Positions 35,175-39,844 of a stretch of DNA of 57,025 bases are shown one piece after another (position 1 is the first letter of the stretch; each line of letters starts with the position of its first letter). Source of the stretch: Escherichia phage PLYYY01; sequence record MZ911962.1. The stretch is one strand, 5' to 3'. The notes below the pieces were generated by a model. It worked only from the letters and a program-made list of their open reading frames with translations. It was not told the origin of the DNA and ran no database searches. A program made the translations under genes and the position numbers.

Positions 35175-35253
35175 GTTTGTCTCCATAACTTTAATGTAAA
35201 ACACTTCATAAAGAATTTTATATTGAAGTTCTGTTGATCTCAAGGAACAAAAA

Positions 35254-35278
35254 AGCCCAGGCATAAGGATTCCTGGGC
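35254..35278 (-). terminator. intrinsic terminator (minus strand)
   Basis: Hairpin GCCCAGG-N11-CCTGGGC followed on the minus strand by TTTTTTG. Confidence 0.5.
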
Positions 35279-35591
35279 TCTCTTGATTGTCGGATAGCTT
35301 ACTTTGTCCGCCGACTTCGTCTATCCTGGCCTACTTGTACAGCCTCGCCAAAGGCTGGTGACGGTTTGGTACATCTGGCGCCGTCGAGTTAAACATTGTT
35401 CACATCGTTCAGTAAGTTGCGGGTTTACCCTGTCCGCTCCAGGAAGCCCAGCGAAAGTAGTTGCTGTAAGGAGGTACAGCTACCGCTTTCAAGGGCTTGA
35501 GTTAAGCATCGTTCACTAAGTTAATGTTGTTAAATTGTTAAACCTCGTTAACTGTGGTTATCTTAAAGGATGCAGTCTTGAATGGCAAGCT
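35265..35591. promoter_or_regulatory. structured non-coding region with GTTAA-containing direct repeats
   Basis: About 330 bp without convincing ORF. Repeated CATCGTTCA(G/C)TAAGTT at 35403-35420 and 35509-35526. Several short hairpins (CAGCCT/AGGCTG, GCTGTA/TACAGC). Clustered GTTAA and one TGTGGTTA. Confidence 0.4.
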
Positions 35592-35906
35592 TCAATTTTG
35601 CGCGGTTCCCTTTGCCGCTTTTGGTGCTAAAGTACCATCATTTAACATCAACTCAAAACCTGTTACTTGATCGGTTGGAACAATAGGGTAATTCATGATA
35701 GCCATGTGGATACGACACCCTCCATCACATTCGTCGATGTATTCACTACCCCAATAGTATAAATGACCATCTCTTCGAATATCCATTGCTGTAGGGAAAT
35801 CTACAAGAATTCTTTTGATTTCTTTTCGTCCTTCTTTATGCAGATTAGTTTCAATACGGATAAGCTCCGCATAAATTGCTTCACAGATAGTATTTACAAT
35901 ACTCAT
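35592..35906 (-). CDS. hypothetical protein
   Basis: 104-aa ORF. Confidence 0.4.
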   Translation of the reverse strand: MSIVNTICEAIYAELIRIETNLHKEGRKEIKRILVDFPTAMDIRRDGHLYYWGSEYIDECDGGCRIHMAIMNYPIVPTDQVTGFELMLNDGTLAPKAAKGTAQN

Positions 35907-36316
35907 TTTTCGTTCCTCACAATCTCATTAGCTTCTTTCCACATAGCTTCACCGTACTTGTCAATGCAAGAGCGAGCAAAGTACCCGTCACCATAGCAGA
36001 AATTCATCATACTGCGATACTTACCCTTACCCTGAATGCGACGAGCGTCGTCCAGACATTTAGCGGACGGTATTCTTTTACCTGAGGCAGCTTTTTGGAC
36101 TTTTTCTTCCGTGGCATCTTTTTGGTCTTTTACTTTACCGTTCATAAAGCGATAGCCGTTTTTTCTAGCAACGGAACGGGCTTCATCTTCGGTAATCATA
36201 AATACTGTATGATACCCTGGCTCCAGAATTTCCGTCTCGGTTACGCAACCATAACCGACTTTCATATGAAGATGACCAATATTCACTTCAAAGTAATGTA
36301 AGTATTTCATTATCAA
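35903..36316 (-). CDS. hypothetical protein
   Basis: 137-aa ORF overlapping the upstream stop. Confidence 0.4.
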   Translation of the reverse strand: MIMKYLHYFEVNIGHLHMKVGYGCVTETEILEPGYHTVFMITEDEARSVARKNGYRFMNGKVKDQKDATEEKVQKAASGKRIPSAKCLDDARRIQGKGKYRSMMNFCYGDGYFARSCIDKYGEAMWKEANEIVRNEK

Positions 36317-36681
36317 CTCCTTAAATTCTGAATCATTCTATCACAGGCAGCTTTTACGGATGAGTTCTGCCAGTCTTCTTCAATTTGTGAAGGTTCTTCA
36401 GGCGAATAAGCAGCACTAATTAGACACTGATTATAACCTTCAATATAAGCTTGCTTTGCGGTATCTATTATTGCTTGTAAAGCAATATTAAATAATTGTT
36501 GATCCATCTCACACCTCACAGAATATACATAAACCAGAAATAACCAGCTACGAAAATAGCACCCGCAAATAATTTTAAAAGCTCGAACATTGTTCCCTCC
36601 GTTAACTTTATGCTGTAAGTATAGCAGGACTTGCGATGTATGCAACAACTTTAGACTTGAAATGCATCTATAAAATAGCAC
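36313..36681 (-). CDS. hypothetical protein (start uncertain)
   Basis: 122-aa ORF; an internal Met (MDQQLFN) may be the real start. Confidence 0.3.
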   Translation of the reverse strand: MLFYRCISSLKLLHTSQVLLYLQHKVNGGNNVRAFKIICGCYFRSWLFLVYVYSVRCEMDQQLFNIALQAIIDTAKQAYIEGYNQCLISAAYSPEEPSQIEEDWQNSSVKAACDRMIQNLRS

Positions 36682-36748
36682 GATTTGCCTTTACATCTGA
36701 TCAGTCTAACTGTACCATTAACCCATAAACAGAGCGGAGGATTACAAA

Positions 36749-36973
36749 ATGGTCATGCTGAATAAAGTATATAGCACAATGGGCGCGGATTATAAAGTTG
36801 TACGTCACCCGCGTACTGGCAAATTTGAAGCATATATCCGTCCAATGGGTGAAGGTTGGATGTATTACGGTACTTATGACGACGCTGAGCAAGCTTATGA
36901 AGAAGCGGAAAGTGCGGCGGAAGCATCCGAAATTATGGCAAGGTACGACGTCGATGATTACTATCTCAACTAA
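36749..36973 (+). CDS. hypothetical small acidic protein, lone plus-strand gene in the minus block
   Basis: 74-aa ORF with GGAGG 8 nt before the ATG, followed immediately by hairpin AAAGGGCC-TTTC-GGCCCTTT plus a T-rich run. The antisense ORF 36701-36976 looks non-coding. Confidence 0.5.
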   Translation: MVMLNKVYSTMGADYKVVRHPRTGKFEAYIRPMGEGWMYYGTYDDAEQAYEEAESAAEASEIMARYDVDDYYLN

Positions 36974-36975
36974 CA

Positions 36976-36996
36976 ATAAAGGGCCTTTCGGCCCTT
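36976..36996. terminator. intrinsic terminator, probably bidirectional
   Basis: Perfect 8-bp GC-rich stem AAAGGGCC/GGCCCTTT with tetraloop. T-run on the plus side and A/T-rich on the minus side. Sits at the convergence of the 36749 gene and the primase-helicase stop (37000). Confidence 0.6.
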
Positions 36997-36999
36997 TAT

Positions 37000-39336
37000 T
37001 TATTTGCTTAAGTCTTTGAAAACACTCTCAATTGACTCGTCTATATACCATCCCAACCCCCTGAAATTACGCTTCAATGCATCCTCACGCGTAACCGGAA
37101 CAAGCGCGCCCATGTCTACAAGTTGTTTGATAGTGAGGTCTGTTGCAGTACCTGCTCCCATCCTGTGATTCTTGAATGCTGCTAACCCGTAGGTTCTGCG
37201 TGTGATAGTTGCCTTCGGAATAATACCGTCAACTCGCAGCTCCTTACGATCACATGCAATTTTACCGCCAAGATAATCTTTGCAGACCTGACAGATAGCC
37301 TTCACACGCGTTTCATCATCACCGCCAATAGTACCTTTTTCCCATGCATTGATCATGATGTCCTGCCCATGCGTAACAAAATCTACCGCCCATTGCATGT
37401 GATTTGGCTGAACGACAGGGTTGATCCAGTTTTCCCCTACCGCTAGCAGGGAGGCAAGACGCAGAGCTTTAAGGTGCGCACGGTTCCACGGCTGACGGAT
37501 AGCTTCGTCTTTAGTTGCGTTAATGTGTTCATCACATAACAAGTTAAACTCCCGCTCAATCCTTTCCGCTTCAGGGCTTAACTGGACGGTAACGGTCTGG
37601 AACTTTGCCATTGTCACTAACGTGTGGTTAACGAGATGGCAGACCATGTCCTTTAATTGTTGTGGCATTGTGATTTCAGGATTTTCGTTTGCAGGAACAC
37701 GATCCCCTTCATATTGCACAATGTGGAAACGGGACAAGAAACCGTCTTCCATCATTTCACGTGTTAACGCTTCAAAGAAGGTGTCCGGTGTTGTTTCGCC
37801 CAGTACGCTGAACGCTACCCCTTCCATCGTTTTGGTATTATTAGCCTTATCAGAATATCCAATACCACCAACAACATCCATCGCACCAGATTTTTGATAC
37901 ACATCTGTAATAGTTTGCTTCAAGGTGTAGTTCGCAGTGCCTGGCTGAGCTGTCGCCATACCTTTAATGGTTTTACCAAACTCACCGTTAATATTCACAA
38001 ACGAAGTATGATCCGCAAAACTTTTACGCAAGGCAGGACCGGAAGCATAGTTAGTCATGTCTACAAATTCATGCACTTGCGGTAATTGCTCGCCTACTTG
38101 CTTGCAGATATAGCTGGGCCCGGCGTGAAGCATTTCTTTGCCCACACCTGATCGGGCGATAAGCACAAAGTAACCGTTCAGTCCAGTGTTGGTGATAGTA
38201 TTCCATACCTTACCGCATACACCTGACAAGAATGCTAACGATGCAGTGATTGCAATTTCTTTCACCGGACGCTGCGATGCCTTGTAGATATACTTCGCAA
38301 GCTCACCAGCAAGACCCGGCGGCCATTCAATAGCGGTTGCATCAATGGACGTGCTTTCTGCAACTACTATTTCACCGGACGGGCTGACTGTGGTTACAGG
38401 CATTTCCGTTACCTGCTGCATTGCACTGTGTGCGGCTTGCATACGGGCAGCGTAATCCCGCGCCAGCGCCGCTACGTTTTCCTGGGCAATGCGTTCACGC
38501 TCCATGCGACCGCGACACATACGCAGGCAACGGTCAATATGAACATTGTTCTTATTAGCCTTCTCACGTTTGCCCAGTGCGCTGTAACGGAACAGACGAC
38601 GACATTGCTCATTACTTTCTGTGTAGAATGCATACATAGAAATAAGAGCAAGATCTGCTTCAGACTGGGAAGGGAATCCCATTTCAACCCATTCGCCATT
38701 GAATAGGCGTGCATACTTATCCCCGTTGTCCGCTTCAAGTGCGCGCTGGTGAATAGTTGCATCGTCTTCTACCGGATCTTTTTCTACCAGTTCGATTTCA
38801 TATGTCTTGCGCTGAAGATCAATTTCATTCACAAGCATAGTAAGATAATGATCACGTTCTGCAACTGGTTTGTTATAGACAGGATTGCCCGTGCAGATAA
38901 TAAAACGCTCCTGACTATAAACCTCGACACCATCACGTCGACGACCTTTACCGATATTTCCTCTTAACCACAGGTGAACACCCAAGCCTGAGCGACTTAC
39001 TTCGGTGTAAGTATCGAACGCGGTCATGATCTGTTCGAAGCGGCGCAACTGTTCCGGCGTCGTGTGCTTCTTGGGATCCGGTTCATTGGTTGCGTTCTTC
39101 ACATCCAGGTCGATGCAGGTGAACGGGTCTTGCGCAGTAAGCACGAAGCCAATATAAGGTTTGTTGAAATGAGCGGCGCAACCTTTAGCAGCTTCAAACG
39201 TCATAAGCATATCCGGATCGGTAACGTCCGCCGCCATCAGGCGCCCGATATCGTTATCCCATACAAGAGGCTTTTTATCCGCATCGGCGACCGCCCATTG
39301 TGGGAAAGCTTTAATTTCAGCGGGAAACAATTCCAT
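37000..39336 (-). CDS. DNA primase-helicase (primase-polymerase-like N-terminal domain plus P-loop helicase)
   Basis: 778-aa ORF. N-terminal region with acidic CIDLDVKN motif typical of prim-pol folds. Central/C-terminal P-loop LIARSGVGKE and helicase-like region. Confidence 0.6.
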   Translation of the reverse strand: MELFPAEIKAFPQWAVADADKKPLVWDNDIGRLMAADVTDPDMLMTFEAAKGCAAHFNKPYIGFVLTAQDPFTCIDLDVKNATNEPDPKKHTTPEQLRRFEQIMTAFDTYTEVSRSGLGVHLWLRGNIGKGRRRDGVEVYSQERFIICTGNPVYNKPVAERDHYLTMLVNEIDLQRKTYEIELVEKDPVEDDATIHQRALEADNGDKYARLFNGEWVEMGFPSQSEADLALISMYAFYTESNEQCRRLFRYSALGKREKANKNNVHIDRCLRMCRGRMERERIAQENVAALARDYAARMQAAHSAMQQVTEMPVTTVSPSGEIVVAESTSIDATAIEWPPGLAGELAKYIYKASQRPVKEIAITASLAFLSGVCGKVWNTITNTGLNGYFVLIARSGVGKEMLHAGPSYICKQVGEQLPQVHEFVDMTNYASGPALRKSFADHTSFVNINGEFGKTIKGMATAQPGTANYTLKQTITDVYQKSGAMDVVGGIGYSDKANNTKTMEGVAFSVLGETTPDTFFEALTREMMEDGFLSRFHIVQYEGDRVPANENPEITMPQQLKDMVCHLVNHTLVTMAKFQTVTVQLSPEAERIEREFNLLCDEHINATKDEAIRQPWNRAHLKALRLASLLAVGENWINPVVQPNHMQWAVDFVTHGQDIMINAWEKGTIGGDDETRVKAICQVCKDYLGGKIACDRKELRVDGIIPKATITRRTYGLAAFKNHRMGAGTATDLTIKQLVDMGALVPVTREDALKRNFRGLGWYIDESIESVFKDLSK

Positions 39337-39357: not shown

Positions 39358-39657
39358 TTAGCCATAAATCTGTTTCCTCCGCCATTCTTCATATGCTGAA
39401 TTATTTGCATCATATACTTCGCAAGCGTCTTTCATGCTGTCGTATAGTCCAAGGAAAGTTCGCCTTGTTTCCCCGCCTGCATCCACCCATGTTAATCGGG
39501 CAAGCCATTTACCCGTTTTATAATCGAAAGTGACACCCTCACGCCCGCTCACATTCTCCCGAGGCACTCGCGGTTTCCGGCGTGCGAGCCCGCGACCTTT
39601 GAAATTACTGCCCGGGACAGTCCTGCACTTACGACCCACGACCAACCTCCGACACAA
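39358..39657 (-). CDS. AP2-domain-like DNA-binding protein
   Basis: 99-aa basic ORF with GVTFDYKTGKWLARLTW...LGLYD pattern resembling AP2/HNH-associated DNA-binding domains. Confidence 0.4.
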   Translation of the reverse strand: MCRRLVVGRKCRTVPGSNFKGRGLARRKPRVPRENVSGREGVTFDYKTGKWLARLTWVDAGGETRRTFLGLYDSMKDACEVYDANNSAYEEWRRKQIYG

Positions 39658-39844
39658 TCCGACCAGCGTGCAACATTAAGACAGGCTCTGCAACTTCGCG
39701 CACGTAAACGTACACATTAGCAATTTTAACTTCGCCCGGCAGTTTACCGCGTAGCGAACACAACTTGCGACGGCTAAGGCCGAAGCGCTTCTCGATTTCT
39801 GATGTGGTTATGTATTTAAGATCAAATTCTTTTTGACAGTCCAT
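39629..39844 (-). CDS. putative helix-turn-helix DNA-binding protein
   Basis: 71-aa ORF, first gene downstream of the large intergenic region. Segment TSEIEKRFGLSRRKLCSL looks HTH-like. Confidence 0.4.
   Translation of the reverse strand: MDCQKEFDLKYITTSEIEKRFGLSRRKLCSLRGKLPGEVKIANVYVYVREVAEPVLMLHAGRIVSEVGRGS

What the first reader, a model, noticed from the sequence alone, without database searches (positions are those of the whole stretch)
36749..36996. Isolated plus-strand small gene with its own RBS and terminator inside the minus-strand replication block
Seen directly: the 74-aa ORF 36749-36973 has GGAGG 8 nt before the ATG and is followed at once by a perfect GC-rich hairpin and T-run. 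It is the only plus-strand gene between 14.4 and 42.5 kb. The overlapping antisense ORF looks non-coding (hydrophobic and Cys/Phe-rich). Inference: a moron-like gene, potentially a host-interaction or anti-defence factor.
Basis: partly seen in the sequence, partly recalled or inferred. Interest (0 to 1): 0.4.

Follow-up and report, generated by a model that had tools for sequence, protein, structure and literature searches.

The report
Small acidic AP2-fold phage gene
The flagged 74-codon open reading frame is a real, selected gene found in every Seurat-like coliphage; it encodes a small, unusually acidic protein with the AP2 DNA-binding fold, and its function is still untested.

Summary
ORF 36749-36973 (+) has GGAGG 8 nt before the ATG. 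It ends 1 nt before a perfect 11-bp hairpin, which also terminates the convergent primase/helicase gene. It is the only plus-strand gene in a minus-strand block of about 43 genes.

The window is a Seuratvirus (Queuovirinae) coliphage. The ORF corresponds to Seurat gp59 and PHROG 22269, labelled 'hypothetical' in all 34 sequenced relatives. It is coding: dN/dS is 0.17, against 1.03 for the antisense frame.

It is not a classical moron. It sits in a fixed slot in every genus member and has typical GC content. However, it diverges much faster than its neighbours (40% vs 91% identity).

The most likely role is a small trans-acting AP2-type DNA-binding regulator (about 0.4). The main rival is an acidic protein-binding or anti-defence factor (about 0.3). 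Interest is modest: a sound annotation upgrade, not a new system.

The parts
36690..36718 (+). Candidate sigma-70 promoter of the small gene: -35 TTTACA (36690-36695), 17-nt spacer, -10 TACCAT (36713-36718)
   Evidence: Consensus scan, 9 of 12 matches. This is no better than chance for the region as a whole: 9 sites found against 11.5 expected. The -10 TACYAT is invariant in five lineages, but the -35 is kept only in close relatives. Inferred, not shown.
36672..36690 (.). Best-conserved non-coding block, AAAATAGCACGATTTGCCT, between the two divergent promoters. It could be an operator, an UP element or a host-factor site.
   Evidence: GATAGCACGATTTGCC is identical in the window, STP-SP5 and L020, even though the STP-SP5 intergenic region is only 65% identical overall. 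It is also kept in Felixounavirus SPJ41, which lacks the gene. Function unknown.
36736..36740 (+). Shine-Dalgarno GGAGG, 8 nt before the ATG
   Evidence: Read directly. Invariant in all lineages. The leader is unstructured (z = 0.28). Annotated as an RBS in Seurat.
36749..36973 (+). CDS, 74 aa: a stand-alone acidic AP2-fold protein (Seurat gp59 / PHROG 22269)
36975..37000 (.). Bidirectional intrinsic terminator, shared by the small gene (+) and the primase/helicase gene (-). It fills the whole gap between the two convergent stop codons.
   Evidence: Perfect 11-bp stem. -16.4 and -18.2 kcal/mol, 0 of 200 shuffles on either strand. Compensatory changes in relatives. Annotated on both strands in Seurat and SA80RD.
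36618..36645 (-). Candidate divergent promoter for the downstream minus-strand operon: -35 TTGCAT (reverse complement of 36640-36645), 16-nt spacer, -10 TATACT (reverse complement of 36618-36623)
   Evidence: Read from the sequence. TATAGCA, which overlaps the -10, is invariant in five lineages. It was missed by the scanner because the -35 matches only 3 of 6. Inferred.

Best explanation
Shown:
- ORF 36749-36973 is a real gene under purifying selection, present in every Seuratvirus.
- It has its own ribosome-binding site.
- It shares a bidirectional terminator with the convergent primase/helicase gene.
- It lies head-to-head with the next minus-strand operon, across a conserved intergenic region of about 240 bp.
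- Its product belongs to the AP2/ERF fold (three- to four-stranded beta-sheet packed on one helix). This is the same DNA-binding module found at the C-terminus of phage HNH homing endonucleases.

Inferred:
- Host RNA polymerase transcribes it from a weak sigma-70-type promoter (-10 TACCAT, 36713-36718).
- The protein binds DNA through the beta-sheet face. That face keeps basic or aromatic residues at AtERF1 contact positions: K16, R19, K25, R31 and Y39, with R31 and W37 invariant across the family.
- The solvent-exposed, strongly acidic helix and tail (residues 44-74: 11 Asp/Glu, 1 Arg) serve as a protein-contact or auto-inhibitory surface.
- It therefore acts in trans as a small transcriptional modulator, either a repressor/roadblock or an activator. 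Its targets would be the junction between two replication-gene operons or other phage or host sites.

It probably descends from the DNA-binding domain of a free-standing HNH-AP2 homing endonuclease that lost its nuclease and was kept.
For: - Coding and selected: third-position bias 12/9/27; pooled pN/pS 0.17 against 1.03 for the antisense frame.
- AP2 homology, single sequence: weak hits to Pfam AP2 (E = 0.006), to HNH-endonuclease PHROGs 99 and 953, and to plant AP2 structures.
- AP2 homology, four-sequence profile: WRI1 E = 4e-6, and four of the top five PDB hits are AP2/ERF.
- AP2 homology, whole-library search: 39 hits. All seven longer hits checked in Pfam are true AP2 proteins (Pfam E down to 1e-64), six of them carrying several AP2 stretches, retrieved at E = 1e-17 to 1e-4.
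- A home-made HMM of six canonical AP2 domains finds this ORF at E = 1.6e-9 among all window ORFs.
- Contact positions: 4 Lys/Arg and no Asp/Glu at the 11 AtERF1 contact positions. WRI1 repeat 2 and the SPJ41 HNH-AP2 domain also have 4.
- Context: divergent from an operon across a highly conserved intergenic region containing an invariant block.
- Precedent: the AP2 domain is needed for sequence-specific transcriptional silencing by phage CasPR proteins (doi 10.64898/2026.02.23.707548).
Against: - The whole family is acidic (pI 4.05-5.05), against 9.6-11.2 for canonical AP2 domains.
- Only 2 of the 7 AtERF1 base-contact residues are identical.
- The P0017/STP-SP5 lineage has lost most basic residues of the sheet, and the canonical AP2 HMM no longer aligns its sheet.
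- The single sequence is below Pfam's AP2 threshold (17.3 vs 33.3 bits).
- Protein type does not co-vary with the adjacent intergenic DNA: window vs L020 is 44% protein and 92% DNA, while L018 vs L020 is 69% protein and 64% DNA.
- The intergenic module occurs in Felixounaviruses without the gene, so the promoters do not depend on it there.
- The promoter is only a 9-of-12 consensus match.
- There are no expression or binding data.
Confidence: 0.4

Rival explanations
1. Protein-binding modulator or anti-defence factor. The AP2 scaffold has lost DNA binding. The acidic helix and tail, with Glu at 47, 51, 54, 58 and 61 forming one stripe, act as a DNA-mimic or decoy surface. This surface would bind and inhibit a host nucleic-acid-binding protein such as a defence nuclease, a nucleoid protein or RNA polymerase.
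For: - pI 4.0-5.0 in every lineage, with 11 Asp/Glu and 1 Arg in residues 44-74.
- The most divergent lineage keeps only 3 Lys/Arg.
- The gene evolves far faster than its neighbours (40% vs 91% for the primase) and is swapped independently of both flanks. That is the pattern expected of an arms-race gene.
- It is purifying within a clade (dN/dS 0.17).
- It is small and has its own expression signals.
- There are weak sub-threshold hits to the acidic DNA mimic AcrIIA4 in two libraries (E = 0.055-0.077).
Against: - The only significant homology is to a DNA-binding domain, and the window-type sheet keeps as many basic contact residues as proven DNA-binding AP2 domains.
- R31, at the position of AtERF1's base-contacting R162, is invariant across the family.
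- No partner is known.
- None of the Bas21-25 defence studies examined implicates the gene.
Confidence: 0.3
2. Replisome accessory. The acidic, aromatic-ended C-terminal tail (DVDDYYLN, DDYDYCY, DEPDYDFCY, SDFY, CEF) would work like the acidic C-terminal tips of SSB proteins. It would dock onto the adjacent primase/helicase or onto host SSB-interacting enzymes.
For: - The tail-to-tail position next to the primase/helicase is strictly conserved in all lineages.
- The tail is acidic with an aromatic residue within the last four residues in every lineage, and it is predicted to be disordered (pLDDT 45).
- The role of SSB C-tips (FDDDIPF) in recruiting host DNA-processing factors is summarised in doi 10.64898/2026.04.29.721553.
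Against: - The tail does not match the DDDIPF motif.
- The small protein does not co-vary with the primase: window vs L018 is 91% for the primase (90% over its C-terminal 200 aa) but 40% for the small protein.
- It is not an OB fold.
- The resemblance is recalled from memory, not tested.
Confidence: 0.1
3. Relic or transcription-level element. The ORF is the decaying DNA-binding remnant of a homing endonuclease, or the locus matters mainly because convergent transcription plus the shared terminator insulates the primase operon from the next operon. In either case the protein has no function of its own.
For: - AP2 domains in phages occur mostly in HNH homing endonucleases.
- An HNH-AP2 gene lies next to the transferred module in SPJ41.
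- A sporadic second AP2-like ORF or an HNH gene sits on the other side of the primase.
- The gene lies exactly between two minus-strand transcription units.
Against: - There is protein-level purifying selection (dN/dS 0.17). The ORF is intact in all 17 haplotypes and in four deeply divergent lineages. The N-terminus MVMLNKVYS is conserved despite synonymous changes.
- A relic would not persist in every genus member.
Confidence: 0.08

Closest known systems
AP2/ERF DNA-binding domain (Pfam PF00847), e.g. AtERF1 GCC-box binding domain, WRI1, TEM1
   Same: - Profile-level sequence homology (E = 4e-6 to WRI1).
- Reciprocal retrieval of Pfam AP2 proteins.
- Beta-sheet plus single-helix topology.
- The Y-[KR]-x-V ... 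G-[KR]-[FY]-x-A-x-[IV]-R ... G-T-[YF]-[DE]-x-A-E-x-A pattern.
- Basic residues at the R147, R150, K156 and R162 equivalents.
   Different: - Stand-alone 74-aa protein of a lytic coliphage.
- pI 4.4 instead of about 10-11.
- Trp154, Arg152, Arg170 and Glu160 are not conserved.
- An extra conserved N-terminal strand (MVMLNKVYS).
- A long acidic helix and tail.
- Below Pfam's own gathering score.
C-terminal AP2 domain of phage HNH homing endonucleases (PHROG 99/953; e.g. the SPJ41 HNH endonuclease, L004 2633-3166)
   Same: - Same domain in the same kind of genome.
- Free-standing gene with its own signals, inserted between conserved replication genes and often on the opposite strand.
- Weak direct hits to phrog_99 and phrog_953.
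   Different: - No HNH nuclease domain or motif.
- Present in all genus members, not sporadically.
- Under purifying selection.
- Acidic, whereas the SPJ41 HNH-AP2 stretch has pI 9.6.
CasPR anti-CRISPR repressors (CapR + AP2 phage proteins; bioRxiv 10.64898/2026.02.23.707548)
   Same: - Phage-encoded AP2-containing proteins acting in trans as sequence-specific transcriptional silencers.
- They show that a phage AP2 domain can serve anti-defence.
   Different: - No CapR zinc-finger domain and no cysteine at all.
- Gammaproteobacterial lytic phage, not a Bacillota prophage acr locus.
- Much smaller.
- Acidic.
Mobile regulatory cassettes of T4-type phages (promoter-early stem-loop elements). Recalled from memory, not tested here.
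   Same: A conserved promoter/leader module flanks exchangeable small genes and marks recombination boundaries. Here the 36505-36768 module is about 94% identical in two Felixounaviruses, where it carries a different cargo gene.
   Different: This applies to the intergenic module, not to the protein. The module is a divergent promoter pair plus a 24-codon ORF, not a stem-loop repeat.

Membership tests
AP2/ERF domain superfamily (PF00847) | Sequence match to the family model above the curated threshold | tested here: not met
   The single sequence scores 17.3 bits (E = 0.0059) against a gathering score of 33.3.
AP2/ERF domain superfamily (PF00847) | Significant profile-level homology and reciprocal retrieval of bona fide members | tested here: met
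   Profile A1 vs PDB: WRI1 E = 4.1e-6, and ERF096 and AtERF1 at E = 0.03-0.07. Profile vs 1.84 billion representatives: AP2 proteins at E = 1e-17 to 1e-4, confirmed by Pfam (E down to 2e-64). Canonical-AP2 HMM: E = 1.6e-9.
AP2/ERF domain superfamily (PF00847) | Three-stranded antiparallel beta-sheet packed against one alpha-helix | tested here: met
AP2/ERF domain superfamily (PF00847) | Conserved Arg/Trp DNA-contact residues (AtERF1 R150, R152, W154, E160, R162, R170, W172; residue list from memory of Allen et al. 1998) | tested here: inconclusive
   HMM alignment: R, P, T, Y, R, W, Y at those positions, so 2 of 7 are identical. There are 4 Lys/Arg over the 11 contact positions. Proven DNA-binding AP2 domains (WRI1 repeat 2, SPJ41 HNH-AP2) also have 4. 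The P0017/STP-SP5 lineage does not align.
AP2/ERF domain superfamily (PF00847) | Sequence-specific DNA binding | not testable with these tools
   Needs EMSA, DAP-seq or ChIP-seq.
Moron (autonomous accessory gene of a phage) | Own promoter and terminator, transcribed independently of neighbouring genes | tested here: inconclusive
   The terminator is strong and covarying. The RBS is invariant. The promoter is only a 9-of-12 consensus match with a conserved -10. The opposite strand forces independent transcription. There are no expression data.
Moron (autonomous accessory gene of a phage) | Sporadic presence: absent from close relatives, inserted between genes that are adjacent elsewhere | tested here: not met
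   Present at the same slot in all 33 close relatives, in STP-SP5 and in three deeply divergent metagenomic lineages.
Moron (autonomous accessory gene of a phage) | Atypical base composition | tested here: not met
   GC 44.4% vs 44.7% for the window, 48th percentile of 225-nt windows.
HNH-AP2 homing endonuclease | HNH nuclease domain | tested here: not met
   The 74-aa protein matches only an internal stretch of about 40 residues of phrog_99 and phrog_953 (E = 0.0027 and 0.059) and gives no Pfam HNH hit. I take that stretch to be the AP2 part of those profiles, but did not check it.
CasPR (CapR + AP2 transcriptional anti-CRISPR) | CapR zinc-finger domain with conserved cysteines | tested here: not met
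   Zero Cys in the window protein. No CapR match. Definition taken.
AcrIIA4 family (acidic DNA-mimic anti-CRISPR) | Sequence or structure match to AcrIIA4 | tested here: not met
SSB-type acidic C-terminal tip | C-terminal D-D-D-I-P-F-like motif ending in a hydrophobic or aromatic residue | tested here: inconclusive
   The tails are acidic with Tyr or Phe within the last four residues in all lineages. None matches DDDIPF, and the window protein ends in ...DDYYLN.

The most novel reading that the evidence does not exclude
An AP2 DNA-binding fold has been converted into a small acidic decoy that no longer binds DNA. Instead it mimics DNA, or otherwise blocks a host nucleic-acid-binding defence or housekeeping protein. 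It occupies a fixed 'allele slot' next to the primase gene of Seuratviruses, where highly divergent versions are exchanged by recombination under arms-race pressure.
Probability: 0.27. Interest if true: 0.6.

Novelty: new variant of a known kind. Interest (0 to 1): 0.33.

Why it matters
This gives a testable fold assignment (AP2) to a 'hypothetical protein' found in every Seuratvirus. That includes the widely used BASEL phages Bas21-25 and the 7-deazaguanine model phage CAjan.

If the protein binds DNA, it is a candidate regulator of the switch between two replication-gene operons in phages that appear to rely on host RNA polymerase (from memory, not checked here). It would also be a second example, after the CasPRs, of a phage AP2 domain used for regulation instead of homing.

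If it does not bind DNA, it would show how a DNA-binding fold can be recycled into an acidic inhibitor.

The portable divergent-promoter module around it shows how regulatory DNA moves between unrelated phage families. None of this changes current concepts, so the finding mainly improves annotation and suggests experiments.

Tried and rejected
- Foldseek of the AF2 model against PDB: no hit below E = 0.2 and no AP2 hit. BFVD returned only uncharacterized small phage proteins, plus one HNH endonuclease at rank 34.
- ATAGCAC as a repeated operator: three + strand copies lie within 222 bp (36556, 36675, 36771), plus ATAGCAG at 36621. The window-wide count is not enriched (10 vs 7.4 expected). Only the 36675 copy is conserved in divergent lineages. 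The others lie in coding sequence or in the minus-strand -10 element. Dropped as an operator set.
- Rfam: no family in the whole window at gathering thresholds, and none at E <= 1 in 35200-37100. The leader has no significant structure.
- Literature: no paper cites the gene's tags or accessions. In the papers on Bas21-25 defence triggers the hits were the terminase, the capsid protein, a different HNH gene (bas24_0090) and a Bas52 SSB-like protein. One read attempt on the Retron-Kva2 preprint failed on a term-length error and was not repeated.
- CasPR membership: rejected, because there is no CapR domain and no Cys.
- AcrIIA4 similarity: rejected as sub-threshold and probably compositional.
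- P0004, an apparent fusion of the neighbouring gene's N-terminus with this protein's C-terminus: it lies at the very end of a 1218-bp MEGAHIT contig that also carries the intact gene. It is most likely a fold-back assembly or amplification chimera.
- NCBIfam gave nothing useful. PADLOC was not run, because it models defence proteins, not anti-defence proteins.
- Co-variation of the small protein with either the intergenic DNA or the primase: none found.

Full report
**What the window is.** The 2.5 kb around the finding is 93-97% identical to Escherichia phages RCIP0359, CSP1C, Greed, OddieOddie, Seurat, CAjan and the BASEL phages GottfriedDienst, KurtStettler and SeppeHuegi. These belong to genus Seuratvirus, subfamily Queuovirinae. 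They are lytic siphophages of about 57-61 kb. The minus-strand block carries the replication, recombination and 7-deazaguanine-modification genes.

**Checking the observation.**
- The ORF runs from ATG 36749 to TAA 36971-36973 (74 aa). GGAGG is at 36736-36740, 8 nt upstream.
- One nucleotide after the stop, a perfect 11-bp hairpin begins (36975-37000, AATAAAGGGCC-TTTC-GGCCCTTTATT), followed by TATTTGCTT.
- The stop codon of the 778-aa primase/helicase on the minus strand ends at 37000. The hairpin therefore fills the entire gap between two convergent genes.
- It folds at -16.4 kcal/mol on the plus strand and -18.2 kcal/mol (GAAA loop) on the minus strand. None of 200 shuffles folds as well on either strand.
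- The stem shows compensatory changes in divergent relatives, and two GenBank records annotate it as a terminator on both strands.
- In the curated Seurat record the homologue, gp59, is the only plus-strand CDS among gp24-gp66.

**Is it a gene, and on which strand?** I compared 17 distinct haplotypes from the window, GenBank relatives and IMG/VR.
- Variable sites fall 12/9/27 on codon positions 1/2/3 of the plus frame.
- Nei-Gojobori pooled pN/pS is 0.17 for the plus frame. It is 0.16 against the most divergent close relative, L007.
- Pooled pN/pS is 1.03 for the overlapping 91-aa antisense frame.

The gene is already annotated as a 'hypothetical protein' in every relative: CPT_Seurat59, SA80RD_67, bas21_0066 and others. 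It forms PHROG 22269, of unknown function.

**What the protein is: sequence evidence.**
- Single-sequence searches gave only weak but consistent hints. These were Pfam AP2 (E = 0.006, below threshold), an internal stretch of HNH-endonuclease PHROGs 99 and 953, and plant AP2/ERF structures.
- The word-indexed database found only four close clusters.
- A profile of those sequences raised the match to the AP2 transcription factor WRI1 to E = 4e-6. Four of the top five PDB hits were AP2/ERF domains.
- The same profile run against 1.84 billion representative proteins found 39 proteins. The seven longer hits I checked in Pfam are true AP2 proteins (E down to 2e-64), six of them with several AP2 stretches. 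It also found three more divergent short homologues, P0005, P0007 and P0017, which all begin MVMLN.
- A small HMM built only from six canonical AP2 domains picks this ORF out of all 631 window ORFs at E = 1.6e-9.

**What the protein is: structure evidence.**
- The AlphaFold2 model (pLDDT 77.8) has strands 7-9, 13-19, 26-32 and 38-43 followed by one helix, 46-72.

I conclude that the AP2-fold assignment is well supported by sequence and moderately supported by structure.

**Why it is not an ordinary AP2 domain.**
- Every family member is acidic, with pI 4.05-5.05. The AtERF1 domain has pI 11.2 and the AP2 stretch of a phage HNH endonuclease has pI 9.6.
- In the window protein, residues 1-43 (the sheet) carry 6 Lys/Arg and 3 Asp/Glu. 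Residues 44-74 (helix and tail) carry 1 Arg and 11 Asp/Glu.
- Glu47, 51, 54, 58 and 61 are spaced so as to lie on one helix face. This is read from the sequence.
- Mapped by HMM alignment onto the AtERF1 contact positions, the window protein keeps R150, R162, R147 (as Lys) and K156. It has lost R152, W154, E160 and R170.
- That still leaves 4 basic residues over 11 contact positions, and no acidic ones. Two AP2 domains that do bind DNA also have 4.
- The P0017/STP-SP5 lineage has lost most of these residues, and the canonical model no longer aligns its sheet.
- R31 and W37 are invariant across the family.
- The N-terminal MVMLN[KN]VYS lies outside the canonical domain. It is the most conserved segment, and it is maintained through synonymous changes.
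- The C-terminus is always acidic, with Tyr or Phe near the end.

**Context and distribution.**
- The gene is present in all 33 close relatives and in STP-SP5.
- In metagenomic relatives with 40-50% protein identity the layout is identical. The gene lies tail-to-tail with the primase, about 27 bp apart, with about 240 bp of intergenic DNA upstream and variable small genes beyond.
- GC content is typical.

These points rule out a classical moron. Yet the protein diverges much faster than its surroundings:

| Pair | Small protein (aa identity) | Intergenic DNA (nt identity) | Primase (aa identity) |
|---|---|---|---|
| window vs STP-SP5 (L018) | 40% | 65% | 91% |
| window vs L020 | 44% | 92% | 78% |
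| STP-SP5 (L018) vs L020 | 69% | 64% | 74% |

The gene is therefore an independently exchanged, fast-evolving allele in a fixed slot. It co-varies with neither flank.

**The regulatory junction.**
- The intergenic region is better conserved than the ORF.
- It holds a -10-like TACYAT (36713-36718) and, in close relatives, a -35 TTTACA for the small gene.
- On the other strand it holds TTGCAT-16-TATACT (36645-36618), followed by a GGAGGG RBS and a conserved, unannotated 24-codon hydrophobic ORF (36590-36516). This ORF precedes the next annotated gene.
- A 19-nt block (36672-36690) between the two promoters stays identical even where the rest of the region has diverged to 65%.
- The segment 36505-36688 plus 36704-36768 is 95% and 88% identical in two Salmonella Felixounaviruses. 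There, a different 127-aa gene sits behind the plus promoter, and only the first 17 nt of the AP2-like gene survive. An HNH-AP2 homing endonuclease lies next to it.
- The promoter module is therefore portable and works without this protein in another phage family.

**How it most likely works.**

Shown:
- It is a selected, separately signalled gene for an AP2-fold protein.
- It lies at the boundary of two minus-strand operons.

Inferred:
- It is transcribed early by the host polymerase.
- The sheet face binds DNA.
- The acidic helix and tail contact another protein or auto-inhibit.
- Its role is that of a trans-acting transcriptional modulator.

I give this model about 0.4. All characterized AP2 domains bind nucleic acid, the window-type sheet keeps a normal number of basic contact residues, and R31 is invariant. 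The divergent-gene layout is typical of regulators, and phage CasPRs show that AP2-based silencing occurs.

The main rival, at about 0.3, is that the fold has become an acidic protein-binding decoy or anti-defence factor. The family-wide acidity, the loss of basic residues in one lineage and the arms-race-like divergence all favour it.

Smaller possibilities are a replisome accessory using an SSB-tip-like tail (about 0.1) and a relic or purely transcriptional element (about 0.08). The first has no motif match and no co-variation with the primase. The second is contradicted by protein-level selection.

**Comparison with known families.** By profile and fold the protein belongs to the AP2 superfamily, although it falls below Pfam's threshold and has an atypical charge.
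- It is not an HNH-AP2 endonuclease, because it has no nuclease domain.
- It is not a CasPR, because it has no CapR domain and no cysteine.
- It is not an AcrIIA4 relative, because the hits are sub-threshold.
- It is not a moron by distribution or composition.

The likeliest origin is the DNA-binding domain of a free-standing homing endonuclease. Such genes recur around this primase. The window itself has a second AP2-like ORF, basic and sporadic, at 39358-39657 directly upstream of the primase. Other relatives carry an HNH gene at that position.

**Verdict.** The gene is real and already annotated, but without a function. The new information is the AP2-fold assignment, the unusual acidity, the combination of a fixed slot with fast evolution, and the portable promoter module. 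This is a useful annotation and a set of clear experiments, not a new kind of system. Interest is about 0.33.

Noticed in passing
window 36516-36590 (-): Unannotated 24-codon ORF, MFELLKLFAGAIFVAGYFWFMYIL, with a GGAGGG RBS (reverse complement of 36595-36600). It is the first ORF after the minus-strand promoter. It is intact in all close relatives, in L020 and in SPJ41. STP-SP5 has a diverged but still hydrophobic version (MFEFVKIFASVIFIALYFWLMYWV). No intact copy was found in L019. It is probably a real membrane micro-protein gene.
   Followed up: partly
window 36505-36688 and 36704-36768; L004 (Salmonella phage SPJ41) 1880-2064 and 2501-2568: The divergent-promoter module, including the 24-aa ORF, is 95% and 88% identical in two Felixounaviruses (SPJ41 and SWJM-02). 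There it drives a different 127-aa gene with no Pfam match. A relic of the small gene's leader plus its first 6 codons is left next to an HNH-AP2 endonuclease that splits the DNA polymerase gene. This looks like a mobile regulatory cassette exchanged between unrelated phages.
   Followed up: partly
window 39358-39657 (-), and 39629-39844 (-): A second AP2-like ORF (99 aa, basic) lies directly upstream of the primase. Pfam AP2 gives E = 2.5e-4, below threshold, and a canonical-AP2 HMM gives E = 3e-6. It is present in only 9 relatives. Other relatives have an HNH endonuclease or short hypothetical genes at this position. The overlapping 71-aa ORF upstream has a helix-turn-helix-like stretch. It may be a fragmented or derived homing-endonuclease-type element.
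   Followed up: partly
window 35903-36316 (-): The 137-aa ORF between the gp57-like and gp58-like genes occupies a hypervariable slot. Relatives have nothing there (Seurat, CAjan) or unrelated ORFs of about 65-190 aa. This probably explains the gap seen in most megablast matches. It has no PHROG or Pfam hit.
   Followed up: no
L023 (ENA contig k141_29406, 1218 bp) 1069-1206: The 45-aa protein P0004 fuses the N-terminus of the gp58-like neighbour to the C-terminus of the 74-aa protein. It lies at the very end of a contig that also has the intact gene, and the junction is at a short AKQAY/AEQAY microhomology. It is most likely a fold-back assembly or amplification chimera.
   Followed up: partly
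window 35265-35591: A gap of about 330 bp lies inside the minus-strand block. It contains the best promoter-like site of the region on the minus strand (35243-35215, TTGAGA-17-TAAAAT, 10 of 12), which SA80RD also annotates as a promoter. Some records call small plus-strand ORFs here (for example 35304-35519). These look non-coding. There is no Rfam hit.
   Followed up: no
window 36596-36612 and 36724-36740: The leaders of the two divergent genes form an imperfect inverted repeat of each other: CCTCCGTTAACTTTATG and CATAAACAGAGCGGAGG (17 nt, 76% complementary). This may simply reflect two Shine-Dalgarno regions, or it may reflect duplication of a leader module.
   Followed up: no
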